Source: an uncultured Myxococcales bacterium (GTDB taxonomy: Bacteria > Myxococcota_A > Polyangia > GCA-2747355 > CAZCFB01). From it: a DNA stretch of 64,000 nucleotides. This document shows positions 2,701-29,471 of this stretch, piece by piece. Under the pieces are notes generated by a model. That model saw nothing but the letters and a program-made list of their open reading frames with translations. It had not been told where the DNA came from and ran no database searches. Position 1 is the stretch's first letter. Each line of letters opens with the position of its first letter. The position numbers and the translations under genes are program-made. The stretch covers positions 3,754-67,753 of the forward strand of contig CAZEFW010000015.1 of the NCBI GenBank assembly GCA_964511535.1, read 5' to 3'.

Positions 2701-4243
2701 TGGTAGCTCCACGAGACGTTGACCGACCCGAGGTGGCGCCGGATGTCGAAGCTGGCCACGGTGGAGGGGCGCCAGTCGCGTTGATAGGAGGCCCACACGC
2801 GAAAGCCGAGGGGCAGCGTCCGTCCCAGCTCCACCGCGAGCTGGATCTGGTGGTCCTCGCGCAGCTCCTTCCACGGGCCTCCCTCCGAGTGGGGGAAACG
2901 CTGGTGCTCGTAGGCGCCGCGCAGGCCGAGCACCAGGTCCAGGGGCAGCAGCAGCGACCCGCCCACCCCCTGGCCGTAGGCGAGGGCCGTGTAGTAATCC
3001 CGGTCGGCCATGCGGTAGCGGCCGTAGAGCCAGAACAGCAGCCGCAGGCGATCCGAGAGCACCGACAGCCCGTGCTCCAGCGACAGCTCCAGGCCGAGGT
3101 TGCTGCGGGGGAAGTGGGCGAAGGTCTCCCGGGCCACGCTGTAGGTCACGCGGGTGGCCCCGCCGTCAGCGGCCCGGCGCTCCAGGGTCAGGTGCCCTGC
3201 GTGGCGCTCGAGGAAGATGTGGTGGTCGTCGGCCACCGGTGGCGTGCCGTCCTCGAACAGCTCGTTGAACCCGTCGAGGAACACCAGGTCGAAGCTGTAG
3301 CTGGCCCCGAGGGTCCAGAGGTCCGGGCCGGAGGTGAGCACCCGCGAATAGCCCGCCACGGTGGACAGGGCGGTGGCGGCCACGTCAGACGCCGTGGGCG
3401 AGCCGCCGCCGGTGTCGGCCGGAAAGTAGAAGGTGCGCGCCACGCCGACCCTGCCCTCCACCCGGTTGAACCGATCGATCCAGGGGCGCAGGGTGAGGCT
3501 GCCCGCCAGGGAGAGGCCGAAGACCGGGTCCCCCTGGGCGTCATGCTCGTACAGCGGGTTTTCGTCCACCAGTCCGCCGGCGGCCAGGGAGCCGGAGAGG
3601 AACCCGGAGGGCAGGCCCCCTGCGTCGTGGGTCGCGCGCATCAGGCGGCGGGCCAGCTCACCCCGCTCGCCCAGCAGCAGGGGCGACAGCACGGCGCGGC
3701 TGCGGTCCAGCTCCCGCGCCCGGAACAGCGCAAGGGCCAGCTGCAGATCCGACTCCTGGCGTGGGCCCCCCTTCAGCTTGCGGGCCGCCCGCAGGGCCGC
3801 GGCCGCCTCGGCGGGCTCGTCCATGGCGAGGTAGGCGATGCCGAGGTAGTGCGCGGCGGCCCAGGAGCGCGGGGCGAGCTCGTGCGCCCGGCTCAGGGCG
3901 CGCACCGCCCAGACGGCGTTCCCCTCGGCCAGGTAGATCAGCCCGAGGTCCAGCTGCAACCGCGCGTCCTGCGGGGCCAGGCGGGCGGCGCCGCGCAGCA
4001 CCCGCCGCCCCTCCTCGAGCTGGCCCAGCCGCGCCAGGGCCAGGCCCAGGTGGTGCGCCGCGGCCAGGTGCTCCGGGTTCCCGCGCAGCGCGGCGCGCAG
4101 CAGGGGCACGGCCTTGCCCAGCTCGCCCTGCTGGTAGCGCAGGATCCCGCGCGCGGCTGACAGCTCCGGGGGCACGTCCGCGGCCAGCGCCGGGGCCGCC
4201 GCGAGGAACAACAGCAGGCCTGAGAGCAGGCTACTGCGCATTG
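2697..4243 (-). CDS. TPR-repeat N-terminal domain plus C-terminal outer-membrane beta-barrel-like protein (about 515 aa from MRSSLLSG...)
   Basis: Signal peptide; TPR-like repeats (AAHHLGLALARLG, AAHYLGIAYLAMDEP); the C-terminus alternates hydrophobic residues and ends ...SVNVSWSYQ (aromatic OMP-like terminus); GGGAG RBS before the ATG at 4243. Confidence 0.6.
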
Positions 4244-4911
4244 AGCTCCCGTACCTTCTTGGCCGCCGCGGGCGCGTCCTTGTCCGAAAACTCGGACAGC
4301 TTGGAGGCCAGGCGGCCCTGCTTGTCGACGAAGAAGAAGTCGTAGTAGTTGGCACCGTAGAGGTACCAGACCCCCTTGGTGTCAGGCGTCACGGGGAAGC
4401 TCACCTTGTCGAAGCCGGGCGCGGCGTACTCCCAGGTGACGCCGCCGGCGGTCACCGCCAGCAGCTCAAAGTCGGTGATCCCCTCGGCCTGGAGGGGCTT
4501 GACCAGCTTGTTCTCGAAGGCAACAACCTGCTGCCCACAGTAGCCTCACCCGAGTAACCCGAAGTAGAGCATCACCACCTTCCCCTTGAGGGCGTTGAGG
4601 CAGACCTGCTTGTTGTAGTGGGCGCTCCTGGGGTTGACCGCCTTGAGGCAGAAGTTGGGGGCGGGGACCCGATCGGAGATGGCGAAGACGCAGCGGTTGC
4701 TCTTGCACGACTTGCCCACGGGCACGCCCTTGACGTAGCAGTCGGCGTCCTTCTCGCACTGCAGGTAGCAGCTGCCGGTGGCCAGCTCGCAGATCTGGCC
4801 GCCCGGGCAGTCGCCGTCCGCGGCGCAGCGACCGTAGGTGGAGTCCACCAGGCAGCCGCCCGCCAGCAGCAGGCAGGGGATCAGCAGCAGCGGGAGGTGG
4901 CGGCCGGGCAT
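4231..4911 (-). CDS. Candidate selenoprotein: Cys-rich lipoprotein with a TlpA/ResA-like thioredoxin-fold domain; in-frame TGA at 4548..4546 sits at the first position of CxxC (KGKVVMLYFGLLG-U-GYCGQQ)
   Basis: Track ORFs 4546..5559(-) and 4231..4455(-) are in the same frame, separated only by one TGA. Translation continues across it without stops (...UGYCGQQVVAFENKLVKPLQAEGITDFELLAVTAGGVTWEY...FFFVDKQGRL...). GGGAGG RBS lies 7 nt before the ATG at 4911. Signal peptide with lipobox LLLAGGC. A 6-bp stem with loop AGGUU lies 10 nt 3' of the UGA on the mRNA (+ strand 4535..4519). Confidence 0.6.
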
Positions 4912-13965: not shown

Positions 13966-14193
13966 CCCCTCGGCTCTGAAGCGATATCAGCGCCGCCGGC
14001 CAACCTGGCCCGGCGGGTGGGATCCACCGTCAGTTCGTCGTACTATCTTCATAAATCAAGGATCTTCGTGGCCCTGGTACCCTGCACTCGGGTCACGGCG
14101 CCGTAGCGGAACCTTGCCCCCGGGGTGGGGCATGGGCTAGGATGCTGCGCCGGAACTACCAGTACGGCGCAGGACCAGCTTGGAGGTTGTCTC

Positions 14194-17100
14194 TTGGCCA
14201 AGAAGTTCGGGCGATATGAGCTGATCGACCGCATCAGCGTGGGCGGGATGGCCGAGATCTTCAAGGGGAGATCCTCCGGCGCGGCGGGGTTCGAAAAAAT
14301 CGTCGCCATCAAGCGCATCCTGCCCCACCTGTCCGACGATGAAGACTTCATCAACATGTTCATCGATGAGGCCAAGCTGTCCGCCAACCTGAACCACTCC
14401 AACATTGGCCAGGTGTTCGAGTTCGGGCGCATCGAGGGCCGCTACTTCATCGCCATGGAGTTCATCCATGGCAAGGATCTGCGCCGGCTGCAGCAGTTCT
14501 TCCGCTCCAAAAACAAGGTGATGCCCATCACCATGGCGGTCCGGGTGGTGCTGGAGATCTGTAACGCGCTGGAGTACGCCCACAACAAGGTGGACGCCAT
14601 GGGCAACAGCCTCGGCATCGTCCACCGGGACATCTCCCCCCAGAACGTGATCATCTCCTACGAGGGGGCGGTCAAGCTCATCGACTTCGGCATCGCCAAG
14701 GCGCTCAGCCGCTCCACCAAGACGGCCGAGGGCAACCTGAAGGGCAAGTTCGGCTACATGTCCCCCGAGCAGGTGGAGGGTGGCGAGATAGACGGGCGCT
14801 CCGACCTGTTCGCCCTCGGCACGCTGCTGTTCGAGCTGGTCACCGGCAAGCGCCTGTTCCAGGGAGAGAGCGAACTGGCCGTGCTCGAGAAGGTGCGCAA
14901 GGCCCAGGTGCCCAGCCCGTCGGGCATGAACCCCTCTGTGCCGCAGCCGCTCGAGGCGATCATCATGCGCGCGCTGTCCCGGCGTCCGGACCAGCGCTAC
15001 CAGCACGCCGAGGAGATGCACGAGGACCTGGAGGGTTTCGCCCAGCAGGCGAAGCTGGTGTTCACCGGCAAGCAGCTGTCGCGCTGGATGAAGAAGACCT
15101 TCGAGGACGAGCTCCGTCAGGAGAAGCGCTCCGCAGGGGAAGAGTCCCAGCCCTCCATGCCCACCAGCCCCGGAAGCGGCGAGACCGGGAAAGCTGTCTC
15201 GGGGACCGCGCCCACCGAGCCTCAGCCGCAGGTGGAGGACGTGGACCGGTCCACGGCGTTCCTCGACCCGTCGACCCTGGGCGGCGCCGGCAAGGCGCCG
15301 CAGCCCGGCAAGGCGCAGCAGCCCGGGCAGGCGCAGCAGCCTGTCCAGGGCGAGCAGACCTCCGACCGGGTTGCTCAGCTGCGCGCCTCGCTGCTGGGGC
15401 CCCAGGCCGCCGGTGCCGAGGGCGGGAGCAGGCAGGAGAAGAAGACTGTCCCCTTCGACCCGGCGGCCCACAGCCGGCCCCCGGGGCCATCCACGCCGCT
15501 CACGGGCGCCCAGGCCGGCGTCCCGGGCGCGGCCGGCGAGGCAACCGGCAGGGCGCGCACCATGCCGCTGCTTCAGGATGAGCCCGCGGTCCGCCCCGGA
15601 AACCAGGCCCAGGGCAGCGAGCCCACCCCCGAAGACCTCGTGGCGCAGCTCCAGTCCGTGGACGTGAGCGATGACCAGGCCACCATGGTCGTTGACGATG
15701 ACGAGGCGGTGGAGGTTGCGGCACCCGGCAACCCCACGGTGCGCCAGGTGGTGGTGAGCCCGGGCGAGGGCGAGGTGCCCGCCGCTCAGGTGCCGCACGA
15801 GGTGCTCAACGCGCCCACCCTGCGGCCTGACGCTGTGGGCCCGGGTGGCGTGACCGGGGACCAGGTGTTGGAGCGCGCTCGGCAGGAGCAACAGGCCAGC
15901 GAGGCGGCGGGAGACGCGGCCCAGGACCCAGCCGCGGTCACGCTGCAAGGACATGGCGCGGGCGGCTTCCAGGACTCCTTCACCATGGTGGATCCTGACG
16001 CCATCGAGGACCTCGTGCCCAAGCCGGGCGCGCAGATGGCCGCCCCGCCCGAGACGGCGCCCGGCTCCGAGCAGCTCACGGCGGCCGACCTGCCCGACCT
16101 GCCCGATCCCTCCGAGCTGATGGATCCCTTTGACGACGGCCCCACGGTTGTGGATCCGGACGCCAGCGCCGAGCTGTTCAAGCAGCTTCAGGCCACCGAC
16201 GGCGATCCGCAGCCGCCGGCCCGCACCATGGCCGAGACCCAGCTGGACGCTGAAGCCCAGCCCGAGCAGCCGGTGGAGATGGTGGTCTCCCCAGACGACA
16301 GCACGCCGCTGGACTCGATCCCCACCGCCGCCAAGGTGCCGGTGGTCCCTGACGAGCCGACCCCTGCCCAGGAGCCCGAGCTCGCCCCGGACCCCTACGC
16401 CGAGGAAGAGGAGCACGCGGCCACGGCGCTGTACAACCCGCCGGTGCCGATGCAGCAGCTGCTGGACGAGACGTCGGCCCAGGACATCGCCGCGAAGCAG
16501 GCCGCAGGCGTGGCGCCCACCATGACGCCGGACCAGATGGCCGAGGCCCAGGGCGGCGTCACCGTCCCGGTGCCTCCAGACACCCTCGAGGAAGCGCCTG
16601 CCATGCAGCCGCCCATGGCCCAGGTCCCCACGCCGCAGCCGGCGGACCTGGCCCCTGCAGCGCTGGATCCGCTGGCCCAGGTAGAGACCCCCGCCATGGC
16701 CGGGCCCGGCGCGGCCGCGCCCATGCCGGCGCCGCCGCCCAAGAAGAAGCGCGGATTTCTGCTGCCGGTGGTGCTGTTCCTGGTGATCTTGCTGCTGGCC
16801 GGCGGCGGCGCTGCCGCCTATTACTTCCTGGTGGTCAAGAAGGACGGCACGGGCACCGCCACCACCGCTGGCAAGACGGCGACGGGAACCGCAGCGGGCA
16901 AGGCCGCCACGACGGCAGAGGCTGGCGACAGCGACAAGCCCGGCATCGTGACGATCCAGTCTGACAGCCCCATCAGCGGCAAGCTGCTGCTCAACGGCAA
17001 GGACCGGGGGACCCTGGCCAACACCGGCAAGTACTCGCTGGAGGATATCCCGGCGGGTACCCACGAGCTGGAGATCCGCGACGGCGATCGCGTGTTCAAG

Positions 17101-17700
17101 AAGACCATCAAGCTGCGCGGCGGTGAGGCGGTCTCCATCAAGGTGGTCATGCCCGTCGAGCCGGCCAAGGAGCCGGACGCCGCACCTCCCAAGGAGGAGC
17201 CTGCTCCCAAGGAGGAGCCTGCTCCCAAGGAGGAGCCTGCTCCCAAGGAGGAGCCCATACCGGAGCCGAAGCCGGAGCCCAAGGCCGAGCCGAAGCCGGA
17301 GCCCAAGGCCGAGCCGAAGCCGAAGCCCAAGCCCAAGCCCAAGGCTGACCCGAAGCCGAAGCCCAAGCCCAAGGCCAAGCCCAAGCCCAAGCCCAAGGCC
17401 AAGCCCAAGCCCAAACCGAAGCCCAAGGCAAAGCCGAAGACCAAGCCCAAGACCAGGGTGCGCAAGCCGCGGGGCAAGCCTGGCATGCTGGTGGTGGCTT
17501 CGAGGCCGTGGGCCAAGATCTACGTGGACGGCAAGGCCACTGGGCGCAACTCCCCCATCCCCCCCTCCAACCCGCTGTCCATTCCGGCGGGCCGGCGAAA
17601 GATCACCCTGGAGGCCAAGGGGCAGAAATTTCACTTCACGGTCACCATCAAGGCCGGGAAGCTGAGCAAGCTGGTGAAGATCCTGCCGGTCAAAAAATAG
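14194..17700 (+). CDS. Ser/Thr protein kinase with a long disordered Pro/Ala/Glu-rich region, a TM segment and two C-terminal PEGA-like domains separated by (EEPAPK)n/(PKPK)n repeats
   Basis: Hanks kinase motifs (VGGMAEIFKG, VAIKRI, HRDISPQN, DFGIAK, GYMSPE). GGAGG sits 7 nt upstream of TTG 14194; the track ORF starts at GTG 14125. TM segment LLPVVLFLVILLLAGGGAAAYYFLVV. Confidence 0.85.
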   Translation: MAKKFGRYELIDRISVGGMAEIFKGRSSGAAGFEKIVAIKRILPHLSDDEDFINMFIDEAKLSANLNHSNIGQVFEFGRIEGRYFIAMEFIHGKDLRRLQQFFRSKNKVMPITMAVRVVLEICNALEYAHNKVDAMGNSLGIVHRDISPQNVIISYEGAVKLIDFGIAKALSRSTKTAEGNLKGKFGYMSPEQVEGGEIDGRSDLFALGTLLFELVTGKRLFQGESELAVLEKVRKAQVPSPSGMNPSVPQPLEAIIMRALSRRPDQRYQHAEEMHEDLEGFAQQAKLVFTGKQLSRWMKKTFEDELRQEKRSAGEESQPSMPTSPGSGETGKAVSGTAPTEPQPQVEDVDRSTAFLDPSTLGGAGKAPQPGKAQQPGQAQQPVQGEQTSDRVAQLRASLLGPQAAGAEGGSRQEKKTVPFDPAAHSRPPGPSTPLTGAQAGVPGAAGEATGRARTMPLLQDEPAVRPGNQAQGSEPTPEDLVAQLQSVDVSDDQATMVVDDDEAVEVAAPGNPTVRQVVVSPGEGEVPAAQVPHEVLNAPTLRPDAVGPGGVTGDQVLERARQEQQASEAAGDAAQDPAAVTLQGHGAGGFQDSFTMVDPDAIEDLVPKPGAQMAAPPETAPGSEQLTAADLPDLPDPSELMDPFDDGPTVVDPDASAELFKQLQATDGDPQPPARTMAETQLDAEAQPEQPVEMVVSPDDSTPLDSIPTAAKVPVVPDEPTPAQEPELAPDPYAEEEEHAATALYNPPVPMQQLLDETSAQDIAAKQAAGVAPTMTPDQMAEAQGGVTVPVPPDTLEEAPAMQPPMAQVPTPQPADLAPAALDPLAQVETPAMAGPGAAAPMPAPPPKKKRGFLLPVVLFLVILLLAGGGAAAYYFLVVKKDGTGTATTAGKTATGTAAGKAATTAEAGDSDKPGIVTIQSDSPISGKLLLNGKDRGTLANTGKYSLEDIPAGTHELEIRDGDRVFKKTIKLRGGEAVSIKVVMPVEPAKEPDAAPPKEEPAPKEEPAPKEEPAPKEEPIPEPKPEPKAEPKPEPKAEPKPKPKPKPKADPKPKPKPKAKPKPKPKAKPKPKPKPKAKPKTKPKTRVRKPRGKPGMLVVASRPWAKIYVDGKATGRNSPIPPSNPLSIPAGRRKITLEAKGQKFHFTVTIKAGKLSKLVKILPVKK

Positions 17701-17791: not shown

Positions 17792-18820
17792 ATGAATGCG
17801 CGGATGGGTGCACTCGTATTGGCCGTTGTCATCGGATCGACTGGATGCGGGACGATTCTCAGGAGCCTGGGACCAAAGGGGGGCGGCGGAGGCGGAGGTG
17901 GAGGAGGTGACTCCAGGGAGGAGCGAGTTCGCGCCAAGGCTGAGCGCGAAAAGCAACGCTTCCTGACCTTGCAGGCGCCCGACTCGGCCGCCGCTCACAT
18001 GAACTGGATCAAGCAGTACGAGAAATCCCGGGGCTACTGCCACACCTGGGCCTGGAAGGACCACGGGATGAAGGACAAGATCGAGGCGTGCGCCAAGGCC
18101 GTCAACGCCCACTACCTCGACCTCGCCCCGGTAGCCGTTCAGATGCTCATCGACAAGGGCAAGGCCCTGCAGGCCCACTGGGCCGTACGCAAGCTGGGCG
18201 ACCACTCCCGCCACCGCTTCTGGAACCTGGACAGCCAGGCCCCGGTGAAGCTGGCCCAGACAGCGGCCAAGGCCAGGGCCGAGTGGGCCCAGAAGCTGTA
18301 CGAGGGCTCCAAGAAGTACGTGGAGCCCAACAACATGGGCTGCGTGGCCAGCGCCTCGCCGCTGCCCAAGGACAACGGCCGCATCGCAGAGCCGGTCTAC
18401 CACGTCAAGATCGGCCAGAAGCTGTACGTGCGCTGCTACTTCCCGTCCACCGTCGCCAGCGTGCTGTCCGGCAAGGAGGGCGCGGTGCTCAAGGGCGAGG
18501 TCAACACCACCGACCAGAACCTCTCCAACTGCAAGGGGTACGAGTGTGAGAAGGACCCCGACCTGAGCTTCCACTACGACATGGCCATCAACCACGCCAA
18601 GTTCGCGAGCAAAGATTACATCGACTACGAGATCAACACCGGCGCCTCGCCCAAGGGCACCAAGGTGACCAAGGACAACTTCGGCACCATCGAGCTCACC
18701 GGCAGCGTGTACTGGGTGATCAAGTACGAGAAGAAATACAACGACAAGACCAAGGCCGTTGAGGTGGTGCCGATCTACGAGAAGGCGGGCGGGACCACCT
18801 CCATCAGCTATCACAACTAG
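17792..18820 (+). CDS. Lipoprotein, hypothetical (342 aa), Gly-rich linker
   Basis: Signal peptide plus lipobox (GSTGC); AGGAGGGAG RBS; noticeably less GC3-biased than its neighbours. Confidence 0.6.
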   Translation: MNARMGALVLAVVIGSTGCGTILRSLGPKGGGGGGGGGGDSREERVRAKAEREKQRFLTLQAPDSAAAHMNWIKQYEKSRGYCHTWAWKDHGMKDKIEACAKAVNAHYLDLAPVAVQMLIDKGKALQAHWAVRKLGDHSRHRFWNLDSQAPVKLAQTAAKARAEWAQKLYEGSKKYVEPNNMGCVASASPLPKDNGRIAEPVYHVKIGQKLYVRCYFPSTVASVLSGKEGAVLKGEVNTTDQNLSNCKGYECEKDPDLSFHYDMAINHAKFASKDYIDYEINTGASPKGTKVTKDNFGTIELTGSVYWVIKYEKKYNDKTKAVEVVPIYEKAGGTTSISYHN

Positions 18821-21821: not shown

Positions 21822-22313
21822 CTACTCCGAGGCCACCGGGGCGATGCAGGTGAGCTCGCCATGCACCGGGATCGCCTCTTCGTTGTCCATGATCTCGATG
21901 ATCAGGTCGTCGGCGTTGAACGCCTCTTCCAGCTCGAGGTTGTCGATGGCCCGGCGCTCGCCCTCGCGCCGCTCGCCGCACGTGTCCCGCGGATCGGGCA
22001 GCTCCCGCCGGCGGTCGTTCCAGCGCCGGTCCCGGCTGAGCCGCTGGCGCAGGCCCTCGATGCTGTGTGGCATGGGGGCGATGCGCATGGCCCGGGCCCC
22101 ACAGTTGTGGCACATGGGCAGCCAGGCGTTGCGAAACTCCACCAGCTTCAGGTTCTCGTGTCGGCGGTCATTGCAGATGACGCAGGCCGCGCCATGCCCC
22201 ACCGGGCGCGCCTCGGCCCAGCGGATGTAGCATATCCAACAACGGCCCCGGCGCAGGTTCTGTACGCGCGCGCCGCACACTTCGCAGGTCTGTGTGTCCT
22301 GGGACTCGATCAT
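21822..22313 (-). CDS. Zinc-ribbon protein, hypothetical (two CxxC...CxxC pairs); track ORF extends to 22328
   Basis: CEVCG...CWIC and CVICN...CHNCG motifs; acidic C-terminus. Confidence 0.45.
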   Translation of the reverse strand: MIESQDTQTCEVCGARVQNLRRGRCWICYIRWAEARPVGHGAACVICNDRRHENLKLVEFRNAWLPMCHNCGARAMRIAPMPHSIEGLRQRLSRDRRWNDRRRELPDPRDTCGERREGERRAIDNLELEEAFNADDLIIEIMDNEEAIPVHGELTCIAPVASE

Positions 22314-22440
22314 GGGTTCACCTCGCATAGTTCCTTACATTGTCGTACACGTCGCCAACGGGCCGGGCAAATTTTTCGCCCGCGATAATTGCCAGGCCCG
22401 ACCGGGTCAGCCTAACCTGTGGAGCAGAGGAGTTTTTTTG

Positions 22441-23157
22441 ATGCGCCGTCCGCGTTGGACCCTTGCCGTTGCCGCCCCCCTGCTGCTGCTGGTGTGCGGC
22501 GCCTTTGACTGCCCCATCGCCCTGGACGAGCCCACGCCCAAGAACAAGGACGGCGGGACCAGCGCCACGCCCGCCATCATCATCGGCGGCAACACCCCCG
22601 TCTATTGGACCCTGACCACCACGCCGTACATCACGGTCACTGCCCACGGCCCCAAGGCGGTGCAGACCAAGGTGCTGCAGGCCACGACGTCCGGCCAGGT
22701 GGGCGACAGCTTCATCAGCCTGCTCTCCTTTTGTGGCCTGGCCAACGCCGTCTGCCCCCACAAGGTGTTGCCCAACCCCACCGCCGTGGCCCAGTACTTG
22801 AGCCAGCCGTCGACGCCGGTGTTCGGGTTCAACCGAACCGGGCCGCTGGCGCTGCTCAAGAAGGCCATGGGCCTGCTCGGGACGCTGTCGGGCAACCAGC
22901 TGATCATCTCCCTGGCCACGGACCACCTGAGCGCCGCCAAGGCCGACCCCTGCGCCCTGGGCCAGGCGTCGCGCATCAGCGCCACGGTGAGCGGCAAGGG
23001 GGGCAAGGTCATCGCGGCCCCGGCCAAGGGGGAGCTGATCCAGGGCACCATCAAGCTGGCCTACAAGTCCGACTGCTTCACACTCTCCGGTCAGAGCGTG
23101 GTGCCCACCGGCACCCGGGTGGAGCTGAGCGTGCCGTTCACGGCGAGCCGCAGGTAA
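22441..23157 (+). CDS. Secreted hypothetical protein (238 aa, 6 Cys)
   Basis: AGGAG RBS; signal peptide MRRPRWTLAVAAPLLLLVCGA; lies 17 nt upstream of the radical SAM gene. Confidence 0.55.
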   Translation: MRRPRWTLAVAAPLLLLVCGAFDCPIALDEPTPKNKDGGTSATPAIIIGGNTPVYWTLTTTPYITVTAHGPKAVQTKVLQATTSGQVGDSFISLLSFCGLANAVCPHKVLPNPTAVAQYLSQPSTPVFGFNRTGPLALLKKAMGLLGTLSGNQLIISLATDHLSAAKADPCALGQASRISATVSGKGGKVIAAPAKGELIQGTIKLAYKSDCFTLSGQSVVPTGTRVELSVPFTASRR

Positions 23158-23173
23158 GCGGGAGCGCGGCGCC

Positions 23174-24145
23174 GTGGCAGTGCCCGAGGTACCCACCTGC
23201 CTCATCGCGGTGCCCACCTTCCGCTGCCCCCTGCGCTGCATGCACTGCGACCTGCCGGGGCTGCGCGGCGACGAGGTGCCGCCTGCCCTGTGGCGGCAGC
23301 GGCTGCAGGAGCTCGGCCAGGAGGTCGAGCGGCCGTTTCTGGTGGGGATCTCCGGCGGCGAGCCGCTGGTGTACGAGGGGATCGACGAGCTCGTCGGGGC
23401 CTGCGCGGAGGCGGACATGCTCACCGCCCTGGCCACCAGCACCCTCCCCCTGACCGAGGACCGCGCCCGCAGCCTGCTGGCCGCCGGCGTCAACGCCCTG
23501 GTGCTGCCCCTGGACGGCATCGGCCTGCACCACGACGAGCTGCGACGCAAGCCGGGCATGTTCGAGCGCACCGTGAAGGCCGCGCAGATGGTCAAGGGCT
23601 TCAGCCCCATGCTGCATGTCAGCGCCGTGTCCACGGTGACCCAACGCAACGCGGACCAGCTGGTCTCCATCGCCCACTGGATCTACGGGCAGCCCGAGAC
23701 CTTCAACCAGATCTGCTTCCACACCCTGAGCGGCAACCTCGGCGGGCCCCTGGAGCATGACCCGCAGTGGCACCGCAAGAGCCCGCTCTGGCCCGGCGGA
23801 CATGAGCACCTGCAGGACCAGATCGAGCAGCTGGCCGCGCTGGCCGAGGAGGGGCTCCCGTTCGTCAACAGCGCCGACGAGCTGCGCGCCATGGCGCGCT
23901 TCTACGCCCGGCCCGACGAGCCCCTGCGCAGCTGCGATCAGTACAACCGCGGCATGCTCGCGCTGCCCGACGGCCACGTGAAGATCTGCCCGCTTCACGA
24001 CCCGGTGGGCAACTTCCGCGAGCAGTCGCTGCTGGAGATCTGGCGTTCACCCGCCGCCCGGGCGCTGCGGCAGGAGATGCGCGGCTGCCGGCGCAACTGC
24101 CACTTCATCACCAACTACGCGTACCAGCGGCACGAGGTGCGCTGA
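23174..24145 (+). CDS. Radical SAM enzyme with C-terminal SPASM-like domain
   Basis: CxxxCxxC (CPLRCMHC) near the N-terminus; C-terminal Cys cluster (CDQYNRG...KICPLH...CRRNCHF). Confidence 0.8.
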   Translation: MAVPEVPTCLIAVPTFRCPLRCMHCDLPGLRGDEVPPALWRQRLQELGQEVERPFLVGISGGEPLVYEGIDELVGACAEADMLTALATSTLPLTEDRARSLLAAGVNALVLPLDGIGLHHDELRRKPGMFERTVKAAQMVKGFSPMLHVSAVSTVTQRNADQLVSIAHWIYGQPETFNQICFHTLSGNLGGPLEHDPQWHRKSPLWPGGHEHLQDQIEQLAALAEEGLPFVNSADELRAMARFYARPDEPLRSCDQYNRGMLALPDGHVKICPLHDPVGNFREQSLLEIWRSPAARALRQEMRGCRRNCHFITNYAYQRHEVR

Positions 24146-24149
24146 AGGA

Positions 24150-24986
24150 TCAGAAGGGCAGGTAGTTGGGGCCGAAGACCATCTTGGCGCCGAGGTGCCC
24201 GCCGATGAAGGCCAGCACCACGGCCGCGGCCACCATCACCAGGTAGATGGTGCGCACCCCGCCCTCGAGGTTGTTGCGCACGCGCACTCTCAGGAGGAGG
24301 GCCAGCACGCAGATCCCCACCACGGAGAGCATCAGGTTCTGGTGCAGCCCCACCAGCTGCTGCTTGAAGAACCCGCTGACATAGTCCGCCCGCAGAAATC
24401 CGGTAATGGCGGCCGGGATGGCGCTGAGGATGGTGGCGAACAGGATCAGCGGCCCGGCCCTGCGCCAGTCGGTGATGCGCAGCAGGAAGGTGCCGAGGTC
24501 CACGATGAGCAGCAGCACGAGCCAGGCCAACGGCAGGTGCACCAGCACCGGGTGGAAGCGGCTGATCAGATCCTTGCCGTCGGCGGGTTTCTTGACCGTG
24601 GGCGGACCGCCCATCGGGTCGAGGTCGTCCTGGGCCCGGGCAATCTGCCGGGCGCGCTCCCGCTGCGCGGGCGTGGCGCCCTCTGACGCTGGCGCGCCGC
24701 CCCCTCCCGTTGCGCCTTTCTCCCCGGCCGGCTCGGCAGGTGGCTTGGGCGGGGGGGTGTCGGGATCCGCCATCACCGCCGGGGAGGCGAGCAGGATCGC
24801 GGCGAAAGCACCGATCAGGTAGACGGACCGAGCATGGTGAGGGTATTGGAATCCCTGGCGAGGCGTGAGGAGGGAGCTTGCTGGAGGCAAGTGACCGACG
24901 AGCAACGAAGCCAGGGATTTCAAGGGCAAGCCAGGCGACGGGAGTCTGGCTGTTCGGTGCTCTCGCAGTGGCAAGATTTTGCGCAT
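24150..24986 (-). CDS. Membrane protein, DUF2231-like (FHPVLVHLP motif), with Pro/Ala-rich N-terminal region
   Basis: Four TM helices in the C-terminal half; no SD, so the start is uncertain. Confidence 0.5.
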   Translation of the reverse strand: MRKILPLREHRTARLPSPGLPLKSLASLLVGHLPPASSLLTPRQGFQYPHHARSVYLIGAFAAILLASPAVMADPDTPPPKPPAEPAGEKGATGGGGAPASEGATPAQRERARQIARAQDDLDPMGGPPTVKKPADGKDLISRFHPVLVHLPLAWLVLLLIVDLGTFLLRITDWRRAGPLILFATILSAIPAAITGFLRADYVSGFFKQQLVGLHQNLMLSVVGICVLALLLRVRVRNNLEGGVRTIYLVMVAAAVVLAFIGGHLGAKMVFGPNYLPF

Positions 24987-25110: not shown

Positions 25111-26547
25111 GTGGAACGCAAGCAACAGGTGTGGGCGCTGGCTCGGCGCGAGATGACGCGCCTCGGGTATTCTCCCGAACAGCTGGGCAACGCCAGCTCC
25201 CTGCTGGACCAGTACTTCGAACGGCGCCGGCCCCGGATCCACAAGCCGGCGGTGGCCGCGGCGGCGCTCGAGTACACCATCGCCCGCATCGACTTCCACG
25301 ACGAGGTGACCCAGGCCGACGTGGCCGCGCGCTACGAGGTGAGCGTGTCCTCGGTCTCCCGGGTGCACGGCGACATGGTGGAGAGCCTGGGCATCGCCAT
25401 GTTCGACGAGCGGTTCTGCACCGTGGAGGCGCCGCTGGAGGGCGCGCTCGACCTGGCAGACCTGATGCTCTCCGGCGGCCTTCGAGACGAGGCGCTGGAG
25501 GCCGGACAGTGGGACGATCCCCTGTTTCAGGACAGCCCGTCCCTCAGCGCGCTGGGGCAGCTGCCCCGGGCGGAGGAGGTGTGGGGCGGGGCGCGGAGCA
25601 CCCTGCGCTCGTACATCCTTACGCCGCGGCCCTTCCGCCCGGACCTGGTGATCTTCGCCGACGAGGCGTCGAGCCTCATCGTCGGGCAGCGCCTGATCTA
25701 CCCGGATGATGGCCTGGACGCCGTGCTCGGCGCGCTGGTGGAGGCCATGGAGGAGCCGGCGGTGGGTGAGCCCCGGCGCCCGCGGGCGCTGCTGGTGCCC
25801 GACGAGGCGCTGGCCCGGCAGCTGGCAGAGGTGCTCGAGCCGCTCGAGATCGCGGTGGGGCACGGGCCGGCCCCATCGGTGGAGGCGGCCCTCCGCTTCC
25901 TGGAGCGCACCATGGCCGCGGACGCGCCGCGGGCGGGCTACCTCGACGGCGGACAGGTGGGGCCGGAGGTCGCGGCCCGGTTGTTTGCCAGCGCCGCCCG
26001 GCTCCACGCGGCCGCCCCCTGGGACAGCGCTCGCGACTACCAGGTCTCCGGGGTGGACCTGCACCGGTGGGGCTACGAGCGCGCCAGCGTCTCCATCATG
26101 GGAGCGGGGGGCGTGGTGCGAGGCCTGCTCATCTTCCGCACCCTGCGCGACTTCTTAACCTTCGACCAGCTTGCGAGCCTGGCGGACCGGACCGGGCGCC
26201 GCATCACGCGCCCCCACGTGGAGGTGCTCTCCCTGAGCTACCAGAACGGCGCGGATCTGGGCGCGCCCCTGCTCAAGGAGGTGCTGCGGCATGGCTGGCA
26301 GGTGGCCGACGCGCACTCCTACCCGGTGCTGCTGCACACGGACCCGGACAACATCGCGATCCCGGTGTCGGAGGAGTCCTGCCTGGCAGCGGCGGCATGC
26401 GCCGAGGCCGTGGCCCGGATGGCCAGCAAGCACCCGCATGTCCTGTCGGCCCGCGGCAGGTGGAGCGAGGTGCCGCGCGCGGAAGAGCGGCTGGAGGTGG
26501 TCGGGGAGCCGGTGGTGATCTCGGCGCCGCACCCGGACCTGAGGTAG
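25111..26547 (+). CDS. Hypothetical protein (478 aa)
   Basis: Long ORF with consistent codon bias. The last approximately 20 nt plus the stop lie inside a family-1 repeat unit. Confidence 0.55.
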   Translation: MERKQQVWALARREMTRLGYSPEQLGNASSLLDQYFERRRPRIHKPAVAAAALEYTIARIDFHDEVTQADVAARYEVSVSSVSRVHGDMVESLGIAMFDERFCTVEAPLEGALDLADLMLSGGLRDEALEAGQWDDPLFQDSPSLSALGQLPRAEEVWGGARSTLRSYILTPRPFRPDLVIFADEASSLIVGQRLIYPDDGLDAVLGALVEAMEEPAVGEPRRPRALLVPDEALARQLAEVLEPLEIAVGHGPAPSVEAALRFLERTMAADAPRAGYLDGGQVGPEVAARLFASAARLHAAAPWDSARDYQVSGVDLHRWGYERASVSIMGAGGVVRGLLIFRTLRDFLTFDQLASLADRTGRRITRPHVEVLSLSYQNGADLGAPLLKEVLRHGWQVADAHSYPVLLHTDPDNIAIPVSEESCLAAAACAEAVARMASKHPHVLSARGRWSEVPRAEERLEVVGEPVVISAPHPDLR

Positions 26548-26904
26548 CGCTCGCTTCGCTCGCGGACTTGAGACTTGAGACTTGAGGGCAATTCGCCCCT
26601 GCAGCCAGGGCTCCCGCACCCGGATCTGAGGTAGCGCTCGCTTCGCTCGCGGACTTGAGACTTGAGGCTTGAGACTTGAGGGTAGATAGCCCCTGCGGCC
26701 TGGGCTTTTCAAGCCTCAAGCCCAAAGCCTCAAGCCTGGCCGACGCGAAGCGGCGGCCTAGTTGAGGTAGCGCTCGCTTCGCTCGCGGACTTGAGACTTG
26801 AGGCTTGAGACTTGAGGGTAGATAGCCCCTGCGGCCTGGGCTTTTCAAGCCTCAAGCCCAAAGCCTCAAGCCTCAAGCCTGGCCGGCGCGAAGCGGCGGC
26901 CTAA
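26527..26904. repeat. Tandem array of repeat family 1: one short unit plus two units of about 146 bp, each unit internally palindromic (GACTTGAGACTTGAGG...CCTCAAGCCCAAAGCCTCAAGCC)
   Basis: Direct inspection. Units begin at about 26527, 26613 and 26759 and overlap the 3' ends of the flanking convergent genes. Confidence 0.85.
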
Positions 26905-28187: not shown

Positions 28188-29471
28188 GTGGACGACATGG
28201 GATCGGTCCTGACATCGCTGCTGCTGCTGCTGCCCTTCCTGCTCTGGGACCTGGCGGCTTACCTCCTGCGGCGCCGCGGGGACCGCTCACCGGAGCGCAG
28301 GGCGGCGCTGCTGCGCCACTTCACCGGGGAAGAGCTGGAGGCGGGGCGGCGCCATGTGCTGATCCATAACCGCCTGGTCCCGCTGTCCCGGGCGCTGTAC
28401 TACGCATACTTCGTCGCGCTGCTGCCCGGCGGCCTCGGGTCCTGGATGGAGCAGCAGCTGCTCCACCTGACGGGCGGGCGCTGGGTCCTCGCGCTGCCGC
28501 TGTTCCTGCTGGCGGTGATGCTGCTCTGGACCGTCACGCGCCTGCCCCTCGAGGCGTACCGGGAGCTGGTCATCGAGCGGAACCTGGGCCTCTCCAACAC
28601 CACGGCGGGGCTCTTCGTCGCCGACGCGGCCAAGGGGTTGCTGGTGGGCTGGGTCCTGGCCTGGGTGGTCGGCTTCTGCGTCATGGGGCTGGTGCGAGCC
28701 ATGCCCGGCACCTGGCCGGTCCCGGCGGCGGCGACCCTGCTCTGCATCAGCGCCTTCATCACCTGGATCAGCCCGTGGTTCATCGCGCCGCTGTTCAACA
28801 AGTTCCAGCCGCTGCAGGACGAGGCGCTGGAGGCGGACCTGCGCGCGCTGGTGGACCGCGCCGGGCTCGCGCTGGAGCATGTCCATGTCATGGACGCCAG
28901 CCGCCGCTCGCGCTACCTCAACGCCTACTTCACCGGCATGGGCAACAGCCGGCGCGTGGTGCTGTACGACACCCTGGTGGAGGCGTGCCCGCCTGGAGAG
29001 ATCCTCTCGGTGGTGGCTCACGAGCTGGGGCACTGGCGCGGCCGGCACATCGCCAAAGGGTTCGCCATGTCCAGCGTCGGGCTGGTGCTGGGGCTGCTGC
29101 TGCTGAAGGGCGCCCTCGCGTGGCCCGCGGCCCTGGCGCTGCTCGGCCTCCCCGGGCCGGACAGCCTGGTGCTGCTGGTGGCCCTGCCCTTCGTGGCCGC
29201 GCTTGCGGGCACGCTCACCGCCCCGCTGGGCGCGGCCATCTCCCGGCGCTTCGAGCGCGAGGCGGATCAGGCGGCGTTCGACCTCACCGGCGACCCGGAC
29301 GCCTTCGTCAGCCTGGAGCAGCGGCTGGTGCGCCGGGCCCAGGCGGATCTGCTGACGCCGAAGCTGCTGCACTGGTGGTATGCGAGCCACCCGCTGCCGG
29401 AAGACAGAATCGCTGCTGCGCTGCGCTGGCAGCGATTAAACAAAAAACAAGGAACAAGAAACTCCAAATAA
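28188..29471 (+). CDS. M48-family zinc metallopeptidase (Ste24/HtpX-like) with N-terminal TM helices
   Basis: HELGHW zinc-binding motif with a downstream E; multiple TM segments. The last approximately 11 codons are encoded by the left inverted repeat of the adjacent cassette. Confidence 0.8.
   Translation: MDDMGSVLTSLLLLLPFLLWDLAAYLLRRRGDRSPERRAALLRHFTGEELEAGRRHVLIHNRLVPLSRALYYAYFVALLPGGLGSWMEQQLLHLTGGRWVLALPLFLLAVMLLWTVTRLPLEAYRELVIERNLGLSNTTAGLFVADAAKGLLVGWVLAWVVGFCVMGLVRAMPGTWPVPAAATLLCISAFITWISPWFIAPLFNKFQPLQDEALEADLRALVDRAGLALEHVHVMDASRRSRYLNAYFTGMGNSRRVVLYDTLVEACPPGEILSVVAHELGHWRGRHIAKGFAMSSVGLVLGLLLLKGALAWPAALALLGLPGPDSLVLLVALPFVAALAGTLTAPLGAAISRRFEREADQAAFDLTGDPDAFVSLEQRLVRRAQADLLTPKLLHWWYASHPLPEDRIAAALRWQRLNKKQGTRNSK

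What the first reader, a model, noticed from the sequence alone, without database searches (positions are those of the whole stretch)
21822..24145. Radical SAM/SPASM enzyme immediately downstream (17 nt) of a secreted Cys-containing protein, with a divergent double zinc-ribbon protein: candidate protein/peptide maturation cassette
SPASM-domain radical SAM enzymes (the family includes anSME, PqqE, QhpD and ranthipeptide/sactipeptide maturases) usually act on an adjacent encoded protein or peptide. Here the neighbour is a 238-aa exported protein with 6 Cys (pairs VCGAFDCP, FCGLANAVCPH). It is not a sulfatase and not obviously a short RiPP precursor, so the pairing does not match the well-known systems.
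Basis: partly seen in the sequence, partly recalled or inferred. Interest (0 to 1): 0.55.

Follow-up and report, generated by a model that had tools for sequence, protein, structure and literature searches.

The report
Orphan radical SAM, exported-protein gene trio
An undescribed radical SAM enzyme lies 16 nt downstream of an exported protein of unknown fold, next to a zinc-ribbon protein, in about ten uncultured high-GC bacteria; it may be a new protein-maturation system, but only gene order supports that, and some evidence points the other way.

Summary
The three genes are real. They are a 4xCxxC zinc-ribbon protein (21822-22313/22328, minus), an exported 238-aa protein with 6 Cys (22441-23157, plus), and a radical SAM enzyme 16 nt downstream (23174-24145, plus).

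The enzyme passes Pfam Radical_SAM and SPASM. It reaches no NCBIfam subfamily cut-off (best 63 bits against 395). Its C-terminal domain has only four invariant Cys, so it looks twitch-like, with one auxiliary cluster. It is an orphan family of about 19 clusters, all from metagenomes.

The trio is intact in all 8 independent loci of the clade with at least 57% rSAM identity, while both outer flanks change. That supports a functional unit.

Three results weaken the maturase reading:
- The zinc-ribbon and exported-protein pair is older and more diverse. It occurs without the rSAM within 5 kb (L139-141), with all five conserved Cys kept.
- A 51%-identical rSAM sits next to an unrelated membrane protein.
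- The zinc-ribbon gene has its own conserved promoter-like motif.

The exported protein and the zinc-ribbon protein match no Pfam family and no solved structure.

My best reading is that the rSAM modifies the exported protein before export (confidence 0.35). Interest is moderate.

The parts
21822..22313 (-). Zinc-ribbon protein (ZnR). It has 4 CxxC pairs, an Arg-rich stretch (RDRRW..RR..ERR..(D/E)RR) and an acidic tail with LIIE...ELTxI. It is probably 163 aa from Met6; the longest ORF extends to 22328 (168 aa).
   Evidence: ORF. Family alignments A5 and A7 show 7 invariant and 1 near-invariant Cys. Exhaustive phmmer found 149 representatives at 50% identity. The AF2 model has pLDDT above 95 for residues 11-90 (87 for 91-100) and no PDB match with E<0.01. 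There is no Pfam or NCBIfam hit.
22342..22379 (-). Conserved promoter-like element of the ZnR gene. Read on the minus strand it is an A-tract, then TTGCCC (-35-like, 22365-22370), a 17-nt spacer, and TACGAC (-10-like, 22342-22347).
   Evidence: GGGCAA[AC]TTTT is invariant in 9 loci and occurs once in the window. In L139, where ZnR is on the other side of the exported-protein gene, the same motif (AAAAACTTGCCC-N17-TAGTGT) sits directly upstream of ZnR. The promoter function is inferred; the consensus scanner found no sigma-70 site here.
22441..23157 (+). Exported 238-aa protein. It has a signal-like N-terminus and a tether predicted to be disordered, which carries the conserved Cys24-Pro25. The rest is a mainly-beta domain with conserved C98, C105, C171 and C212 and the motif [GSA][FY]NRxGPL.
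   Evidence: ORF and GGAG-rich Shine-Dalgarno region. The family is tiny, 10 clusters in 5.8 billion sequences. Alignments are A4, A6 and A8. The AF2 model has pLDDT 83.8 and pTM 0.78, with residues 1-41 below 50. The best PDB match has E=1.7e-3 and TM below 0.3. No Pfam hit at E<=1 for any member.
23174..24145 (+). Radical SAM enzyme of 323 aa. It has CX3CX2C at residues 18-25, GGEP at 61-64, no N-terminal RRE domain, and a C-terminal SPASM/twitch-like domain with C254-X12-G-X4-C272 ... C305-X3-C309.
   Evidence: Pfam hits. No NCBIfam cut-off is reached. The family alignment is A1. About 19 clusters are at least 50% identical, then identity drops to 30%. The best PDB sequence matches are SkfB, PqqE, BlsE, SuiB, GDGT-MAS and MoaA. 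A GGGAG Shine-Dalgarno sequence lies 8 nt before the GTG.

Best explanation
Genes 22441-24145 are probably a two-gene operon. It encodes an exported, mainly-beta protein of a tiny uncharacterised family, followed by a cytoplasmic radical SAM enzyme of an orphan family. The enzyme probably has one auxiliary Fe-S cluster (twitch-like).

The most likely role is that the enzyme installs a radical-mediated modification on the unfolded precursor of the exported protein, in the cytoplasm, before export. The modification could be a cross-link, an epimerisation or an oxidation. QhpD acts this way on QhpC, and anSME acts this way on sulfatases.

The divergent zinc-ribbon protein is a separate transcription unit with its own conserved promoter-like element. 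It is the older partner of the exported protein. It is probably a cytoplasmic nucleic-acid- or protein-binding factor and not part of the chemistry.

Shown: the gene anatomy, domain content, family sizes and conservation of gene order. Inferred: the operon, the substrate, the chemistry, the number of clusters and the role of the zinc-ribbon protein.
For: Operon-like arrangement: the exported-protein gene and the rSAM gene are on the same strand, 16 nt apart, each with its own Shine-Dalgarno sequence. No terminator-like site lies between them.

Conserved adjacency: it holds in every locus of the clade with at least 57% rSAM identity for which DNA was obtained. These are the window/L137, L054, L001/2, L003/4, L005/55, L134, L135 and L136, with gaps of 4-50 nt. 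In the same loci the gene upstream of the trio changes (Rsm22, PMT_2, an 853-aa protein, a beta-helix protein). The gene downstream changes too (DUF2231 or ExbD).

Enzyme features: the catalytic motifs are intact and invariant. There is no RRE domain, and the gaps of 16 nt, 4 nt and 127 nt leave no room for a hidden short precursor. That fits a protein substrate better than a RiPP peptide.

Not housekeeping: no NCBIfam equivalog for heme, PQQ, Moco, mycofactocin, hopanoid or sulfatase maturation is reached.

Precedent: QhpD modifies QhpC in the cytoplasm before translocation and is encoded in the same operon as its substrate (PMC7876137).

Weak lead: Asn131 of [GSA][FY]NRxGPL is invariant in the close clade (the 6 members with known context are rSAM-linked) and is replaced in the two rSAM-less homologues.
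Against: - All evidence is contextual, and it comes from one narrow uncultured lineage, so shared ancestry inflates the apparent conservation.
- The ZnR and exported-protein pair occurs with no rSAM of this family within +-5 kb in L139-141.
- In L138 the 179 nt left after the exported-protein gene hold a tRNA-like sequence cut by the contig end, with no rSAM start (ARAGORN called no tRNA there).
- The rSAM-less homologue in L139 keeps all five conserved Cys. The Cys are therefore better explained as two disulfides plus one N-terminal Cys.
- The 51%-identical rSAM P0018 (L052) follows an unrelated polytopic membrane protein, with a 5-nt gap.
- The P0015 context has a 228-aa protein and a rubrerythrin-like protein instead.
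- The 30%-identical relatives lie beside glycoside hydrolases.
- Homology gives no information on substrate class. The best matches include peptide-, sugar-, lipid- and nucleotide-modifying enzymes.
Confidence: 0.35

Rival explanations
1. There is no direct functional link. The rSAM acts on an unrelated substrate, and its position behind the exported-protein gene is lineage-specific synteny kept by short intergenic distance and recent common ancestry.
For: - The whole neighbourhood is broadly syntenic among these contigs: RadC, PASTA, Rsm22, DUF2231, DUF6930 and M48.
- The pair exists without the rSAM.
- rSAM relatives exist without the pair.
- The family is known only from about 19 closely related clusters.
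- The surroundings are ordinary chromosomal genes.
Against: The outer flanks changed at least five times among 8 loci, while neither inner junction was ever broken. The rSAM gene always follows within 4-50 nt on the same strand. The codon usage is native.
Confidence: 0.3
2. The link is functional but indirect. The rSAM makes or modifies a small molecule (a lipid, isoprenoid, sugar or cofactor), and the exported beta-rich protein binds, carries or uses it.
For: - The exported protein's weak structural neighbours are ligand-binding barrels: YceI polyisoprenoid-binding protein, TbpB and surface lipoproteins (TM below 0.33, not significant).
- The rSAM has only four Cys in its C-terminal domain, like twitch enzymes. 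These include small-molecule enzymes such as BtrN and MoaA. Its PDB and NCBIfam neighbours include BlsE, DesII, BtrN, HpnH and GDGT-MAS.
- Distant relatives lie next to glycoside hydrolases.
Against: No other biosynthetic genes are conserved with the pair. The structural matches are not significant. The similarity to sugar and lipid enzymes is confined to the common radical SAM core (residues 7-185).
Confidence: 0.2
3. The rSAM modifies the Cys-rich zinc-ribbon protein, which is cytoplasmic like the enzyme, and not the exported protein.
For: The zinc-ribbon protein is cytoplasmic, has 8 conserved Cys and a conserved C-terminal tail, and is adjacent in all close loci.
Against: - The ZnR family is far more diverse than the rSAM family: 149 representatives at 50% identity, at 29-72% identity to the query, against rSAM clusters that are all at least 50% identical.
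- ZnR keeps its Cys and its tail where no rSAM is nearby.
- It is a separate, divergent transcription unit with its own conserved promoter-like motif.
- The AF2 model shows an ordinary, confidently folded double zinc-ribbon core.
Confidence: 0.05

Closest known systems
QhpD / QhpC (radical SAM enzyme that cross-links the gamma subunit of quinohemoprotein amine dehydrogenase)
   Same: A radical SAM/SPASM-class enzyme is encoded in the same operon as a Cys-containing protein destined for the periplasm. It modifies that protein in the cytoplasm before translocation (PMC7876137).
   Different: QhpC is a small protein of about 110 aa with a cleaved 28-residue leader, and it is exported by an ABC transporter. 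Here the neighbour is a 238-aa protein with a signal-like N-terminus and a predicted all-beta fold. No qhpA/B/E/F/G genes are nearby. No QhpD model is among the 25 best NCBIfam hits.
anSME (anaerobic sulfatase-maturating enzyme) and sulfatases
   Same: A radical SAM enzyme without an RRE domain acts on a full-size exported protein before export.
   Different: anSME has a full SPASM domain with two auxiliary clusters, whereas only 4 Cys are present here. The PDB anSME match is only E=1e-4. The partner has no sulfatase domain and no (C/S)xPxR motif (sequence).
TIGR04133/TIGR04134 'rSAM/lipoprotein system' (uncharacterised; named by NCBIfam)
   Same: It is a radical SAM/SPASM protein whose NCBIfam short name (rSAM_w_lipo) and JGI's label 'rSAM/lipoprotein system' indicate a paired lipoprotein. 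TIGR04133 is the second-best NCBIfam hit.
   Different: The score is 57 bits against a cut-off of 425, and it covers only the radical SAM core. The exported protein matches no NCBIfam model. It lacks a canonical lipobox at the conserved Cys.
Twitch-domain radical SAM enzymes (SkfB, BtrN, MoaA)
   Same: The C-terminal domain has the CX9-15GX4C signature plus two more Cys, enough for one auxiliary cluster. SkfB is the best PDB sequence match at 7.5e-22, and its twitch Cys region aligns weakly. The twitch definition is from PMC9012708.
   Different: SkfB has an N-terminal RRE-like extension and a short peptide substrate. BtrN and MoaA act on small molecules. Identity outside the core is low, and none of these families' models is reached.

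Membership tests
Radical SAM superfamily (PF04055) | A CX3CX2C cluster motif, a GGE SAM-binding motif, and a Pfam score above the gathering threshold | tested here: met
   C18-X3-C22-X2-C25 and G61-G62-E63 are invariant or nearly so in 20 sequences. PF04055 scores 51.1 bits against 29.5.
SPASM domain (PF13186) | Pfam score above the gathering threshold | tested here: met
   34.3 bits against 21.5, residues 254-309.
SPASM domain (two auxiliary clusters) | The seven-Cys motif CX9-15GX4C ... CX2CX5CX3C ... C, which ligates two auxiliary [4Fe-4S] clusters | tested here: not met
   Only C254, C272, C305 and C309 are present and invariant in the C-terminal domain. The CX2CX5 part is absent. The number of clusters itself cannot be tested without spectroscopy.
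Twitch domain (one auxiliary cluster) | A truncated SPASM domain with CX9-15GX4C plus further Cys that bind a single auxiliary cluster (PMC9012708) | tested here: inconclusive
   The sequence pattern fits: C254-X12-G267-X4-C272, C305, C309. There is a weak alignment to the SkfB twitch region. Near-invariant C77 and C181 could add ligands. The cluster content is not testable here.
anSME (anaerobic sulfatase maturase) | An NCBIfam equivalog score, and a sulfatase partner with (C/S)xPxR | tested here: not met
   It is not among the 25 best NCBIfam hits, all of which are far below their cut-offs. PDB anSME gives E=1.2e-4. The partner has no sulfatase domain or motif.
PqqE / mycofactocin MftC / AhbD-NirJ / MoaA / HpnH (cofactor and housekeeping radical SAM enzymes) | Reaching the curated equivalog cut-off | tested here: not met
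   Scores against cut-offs: PqqE 52.9 against 381, MftC 44.3 against 265, AhbD 52.8 against 500, NirJ 50.5 against 515, MoaA 29.3 against 284, HpnH 41.3 against 225. No pqq, mft or heme genes were found among the 20 neighbouring genes scanned.
TIGR04133/TIGR04134 rSAM/lipoprotein system | The enzyme reaches the TIGR04133 cut-off and the partner matches TIGR04134 | tested here: not met
   57.2 bits against 425. The partner has no NCBIfam hit at E<=0.01.
RiPP radical SAM maturase (sacti-/ranthipeptide type) | An N-terminal RRE (PqqD-like) domain and an adjacent short precursor peptide | tested here: not met
   The cluster motif starts at residue 18, so there is no room for an RRE. The intergenic gaps are 16 nt and 4 nt, and the divergent gap is about 127 nt and holds a promoter-like motif, so there is no room for a short precursor ORF. 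Scores for the RiPP maturase models in the table are far below their cut-offs.
QhpD/QhpC | A QhpD equivalog score and a qhp operon (qhpA, B, C, E, F, G) | tested here: not met
   No QhpD model is among the best hits. There are no qhp genes among the 20 neighbouring genes scanned.
Bacterial lipoprotein (for the exported protein) | A lipobox [LVI][ASTVI][GAS]C at the end of the signal peptide | tested here: inconclusive
   The conserved Cys24 is preceded by D, G or K, with D or S at -2, so it is not canonical. A second Cys, found only in a subclade (LLVC19 here; FVSC and FAAC in P0077 and P0082), looks lipobox-like. A disordered tether follows in the model.

The most novel reading that the evidence does not exclude
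The orphan radical SAM enzyme installs a previously unknown covalent modification in a full-size, exported beta-rich protein before export. One candidate site is the clade-specific [GSA][FY]NRxGPL loop or the conserved tether. This would be a third kind of radical SAM protein maturation, after sulfatase and QhpC maturation, added to an older zinc-ribbon/exported-protein module.
Probability: 0.3. Interest if true: 0.7.

Novelty: new variant of a known kind. Interest (0 to 1): 0.4.

Why it matters
Few radical SAM enzymes are known to act on whole proteins instead of short peptides. From my own knowledge, examples are anSME, QhpD, the methyl-coenzyme M reductase modifiers and glycyl-radical activases. 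A new enzyme-substrate pair would add new chemistry and a new substrate-recognition mode that needs no RRE domain.

All three families (enzyme, exported protein, zinc-ribbon protein) have no Pfam or NCBIfam family of their own, no solved relative for two of them, and no paper found in my searches. Even a modest experimental result would therefore annotate three dark families.

If the link is only synteny, this is one more of the many uncharacterised radical SAM enzymes.

Tried and rejected
- Public collections. The GTDB species-representative scan with the rSAM profile returned only distant radical SAM enzymes at 22-34% identity, mostly Terracidiphilus. The metagenome scan returned only three true family loci.
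- Sequence searches for the two partner proteins. PDB profile searches gave zero hits at E<=10. Pfam on every family member at E<=1 gave nothing for the exported protein and only generic zinc-ribbon noise for ZnR.
- Defence system. PADLOC gave only a 15-bit viperin-core hit. Rejected.
- RNA elements. Rfam found none in the window.
- Sigma-54 reading of the conserved GGGCAA-N-TTTTT motif. Rejected, because GG-N10-GC holds in only 3 of the 8 loci checked by eye. In L139 the motif also follows the orientation of the ZnR gene, where it reads TTGCCC-N17-TAGTGT.
- Hidden short precursor ORF. Rejected for lack of space.
- L052 upstream 240-aa protein as a homologue of the exported protein. Rejected; it is an unrelated membrane protein.
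- P0015 contig. No DNA was available. Its 170-aa 'rubrerythrin (weak)' neighbour cannot be assigned to the ZnR family, and no ZnR member gives a rubrerythrin hit among the 25 most frequent Pfam families.
- Literature. Searches found no paper on this family or on TIGR04133/4 function.
Full report
**1. What is in the sequence**

The window is 64 kb at about 69% GC. It looks like ordinary chromosome. Nearby genes include a Ser/Thr kinase, RadC, a PASTA protein, an Rsm22-like methyltransferase, an M48 peptidase, a two-component system, HtrA, and fatty-acid oxidation and malic enzyme genes. It has no tRNA genes and no Rfam match.

The finding covers three ORFs:
- 21822-22328 (minus), a protein with four CxxC pairs.
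- 22441-23157 (plus), 238 aa. Its ATG is preceded by GGAGCAGAGGAG.
- 23174-24145 (plus), 323 aa. Its GTG is preceded by GGGAG, 16 nt after the upstream stop codon.

All three have GC3 of 0.89-0.96, like the surrounding genes.

The zinc-ribbon gene most likely starts at Met6 (22313). Homologues start there, and a GAGGTG sequence precedes that ATG. A gene caller gave 163 aa for this gene on another assembly's contig, where it runs off the end of the fetched locus.

**2. The enzyme**

Pfam gives Radical_SAM (51.1 bits) and SPASM (34.3 bits), both above threshold.

Against NCBIfam it touches 40 models, but only through the common core (roughly residues 5-185). None comes close to its cut-off. The best is TIGR04053 at 63 against 395, then TIGR04133 'rSAM_w_lipo' at 57 against 425. 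PqqE, AhbD, NirJ, MftC, HpnH and MoaA are all at least five-fold too low.

Against PDB sequences, a family profile finds the following:
- SkfB, 7.5e-22
- PqqE
- BlsE
- SuiB
- GDGT-MAS
- MoaA
- anSME, only 1e-4

These are peptide, sugar, lipid and nucleotide enzymes alike, so homology says nothing about substrate class.

The family alignment (A1) shows:
- Invariant or near-invariant C18, C22, C25 and G61-G62-E63-P64.
- No N-terminal extension, so no RRE domain.
- Exactly four invariant Cys in the C-terminal domain: C254-X12-G267-X4-C272, then C305-X3-C309.

A full SPASM domain binds two auxiliary clusters, and a twitch domain is the truncated one-cluster form (PMC9012708). This pattern is twitch-like. 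That is an inference from sequence. Near-invariant C77 and C181 leave some room for a second site.

The family is very small. About 19 clusters at 90% identity are at least 50% identical to the query. All come from metagenomes or MAGs and none has an informative name. Identity then drops to 30%.

**3. The exported protein**

It has a basic N-terminus, a hydrophobic stretch, and then ...VC19GAFDC24P.

Only 10 clusters were found among 5.8 billion sequences, even with a profile.

Five Cys are conserved in the family:
- C24, always followed by Pro
- F97-C98
- C105-P106
- C171
- C212

AlphaFold2 with the 10-sequence alignment gives a confident model (pLDDT 83.8, pTM 0.78). Residues 1-41, which include C24, are disordered. 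The rest is mainly beta with short helices.

Foldseek against the PDB gives no significant match. The best has E=1.7e-3 with TM below 0.3. The weak hits are PsbO, YceI, TbpB and surface-lipoprotein barrels.

No family member matches Pfam at E<=1 or PDB sequences at E<=10.

The conserved C24 is not in a canonical lipobox. A second Cys, found only in a subclade (LLVC19 here), is lipobox-like. Lipoprotein status is therefore open.

I infer that C98/C105 and C171/C212 form disulfides and that C24 is a free or lipidated N-terminal Cys.

**4. The zinc-ribbon protein**

Seven of the eight Cys are invariant and C15 is nearly so. Repeated (D/E)RR motifs and an acidic LIIE...ELTxI tail are also conserved.

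The model is very confident for residues 11-90 (pLDDT above 95; 87 for 91-100) and has no PDB match with E<0.01.

An exhaustive phmmer search finds 149 representatives at 50% identity, 98 of them below 1e-10, at 29-72% identity to the query over the matched stretch. This family is therefore much more diverse than the rSAM family.

**5. Gene order elsewhere**

The trio ZnR(-)/exported(+)/rSAM(+) is present in every close locus for which DNA was obtained. These are the window (the same locus was recovered from a read-run assembly as L137), L054, L001/2, L003/4, L005/55, L134, L135 and L136. Here rSAM identity is 57-75%, exported-protein identity 36-59% and ZnR identity 53-63%. The gap between the exported-protein gene and the rSAM gene is 4-50 nt.

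In the same loci the outer flanks change:
- Upstream of ZnR: Rsm22, three PMT_2 genes, an 853-aa protein, or a beta-helix protein.
- Downstream of the rSAM: DUF2231 or ExbD.

So the trio is the stable unit, and DUF2231, which is convergent in the window, is not part of it.

Four observations point the other way:

(a) L139-141 carry a ZnR homologue (54% identity) with a clear homologue of the exported protein directly upstream on the same strand (hmmsearch E=1.5e-52). No member of the rSAM family lies within +-5 kb. That homologue keeps all five conserved Cys.

(b) L138 has ZnR(-)/exported(+). The 179 nt left after the exported-protein gene contain no rSAM start. They contain a sequence very like the tRNA-Lys(CTT) of L139, cut by the contig end. 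ARAGORN did not call a tRNA there.

(c) The 51%-identical rSAM P0018 (L052) follows an unrelated membrane protein, with a 5-nt gap, and the locus has neither ZnR nor the exported protein.

(d) The contexts of P0015 and of the 30%-identical P0021 also differ.

**6. Regulation**

The divergent spacer holds GGGCAA[AC]TTTT, which is invariant in nine loci and occurs once in the window.

On the minus strand it reads as an A-tract, TTGCCC, a 17-nt spacer and a TA-starting hexamer. In L139 the same element (AAAAACTTGCCC-N17-TAGTGT) lies directly upstream of ZnR, although ZnR is there downstream of the exported-protein gene.

The motif therefore belongs to ZnR, which is its own transcription unit. The promoter function is inferred, and the consensus scanner found no sigma-70 site in the region.

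I considered a sigma-54 reading and rejected it. GG-N10-GC holds in only 3 of the 8 loci I checked by eye.

**7. Interpretation**

The maturase idea is plausible:
- The two genes have an operon-like arrangement.
- The inner junctions were never broken while the flanks were rearranged at least five times.
- The enzyme has no RRE domain, and there is no room for a hidden precursor peptide.
- The enzyme is not in a housekeeping family.
- QhpD/QhpC is a precedent for cytoplasmic radical SAM modification of an exported protein encoded in the same operon (PMC7876137).

But the evidence is contextual and comes from one narrow lineage. The exported protein and its Cys pattern predate the enzyme, and the enzyme clade changes neighbours at about 50% identity.

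My probabilities are:
- 0.35, the rSAM modifies the exported protein.
- 0.30, there is no functional link.
- 0.20, the link is indirect, through a small molecule.
- 0.05, the rSAM modifies ZnR.
- The remainder is unassigned.

One weak lead is Asn131 in [GSA][FY]NRxGPL. It is invariant in the close clade, whose six members with known context are all rSAM-linked, and it is replaced in both rSAM-less homologues. This is confounded with evolutionary distance.

**8. Novelty and score**

The enzyme, the exported protein and the zinc-ribbon protein all lack a curated family of their own. My searches found no paper on them.

In kind, this is a variant of the known theme of a radical SAM enzyme next to its protein substrate. 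Most radical SAM enzymes are still uncharacterised (abstract of PMC9477430, listed), and from general knowledge many of them sit next to hypothetical proteins. A specialist would be interested but not surprised.

Interest is 0.4. It would rise to about 0.7 if a covalent modification of the exported protein were shown.

Noticed in passing
window 22342-22379 (minus strand); L139:4912-4950: A promoter-like element (A-tract, TTGCCC, N17, TA-starting hexamer) has an invariant core in nine loci and always lies upstream of the zinc-ribbon gene, whatever its orientation relative to the exported-protein gene. In a 69% GC genome this AT-rich block stands out.
   Followed up: partly
window 26540-26900: The spacer between the DUF6930/DUF7309 gene and the 402-aa gene holds a 136-bp unit repeated about 1.8 times at 100% identity, with a further partial copy upstream. 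The unit is built of GACTTGA heptamers and their complement TCAAGCC, so it can form long hairpins. It may be a REP- or MITE-like element.
   Followed up: partly
L139:4016-4090; L138:about 4190-4255: A tRNA-Lys(CTT) gene lies next to the exported-protein gene in L139, the rSAM-less locus (upstream). A very similar sequence, cut by the contig end and not called by ARAGORN, lies downstream of that gene in L138. The window has no tRNA.
   Followed up: partly
L053:8521-9528 (minus) and L053:6001-7026; L052:4014-4922 (minus): In L053 a second family paralogue (243 bits to the family profile) lies two genes away; in L052 the second rSAM/SPASM gene is only remotely related (52 bits). Glycoside hydrolase genes lie next to them: GH79C in L053, MGH1-like GH in L052, and GH5 cellulase on the P0015 contig. 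This may hint at a carbohydrate-related role for the wider family.
   Followed up: no
window 24150-24986 (minus); L003, L005, L134, L136: The DUF2231 membrane protein is convergent with the rSAM, with 4 nt between the stop codons. In four of the related loci it is paired with a metallo-beta-lactamase-fold gene that the window and L001 lack. It is separated from the rSAM by ExbD in L134, by ExbD and three small ORFs in L136, and is absent from L135. It is a neighbour, not part of the trio.
   Followed up: partly
window 14125-17700 (plus): A 1191-aa Ser/Thr kinase has a very long low-complexity linker and a (PKPE/PKPK)n tract of about 100 residues. This tract produces long spurious ORFs on the other strand and in other frames.
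   Followed up: no
window 17792-18820 (plus): A 342-aa protein with a lipoprotein-like signal (GSTGC) followed by a run of eleven Gly. It has no Pfam or NCBIfam match.
   Followed up: no
window 25111-26547 (plus) and 28188-29471 (plus): The DUF6930/DUF7309 protein travels with this neighbourhood in the window, L001, L003, L005, L134 and L135; the M48 peptidase is seen in four of them. So the region has wider synteny than the trio alone.
   Followed up: partly
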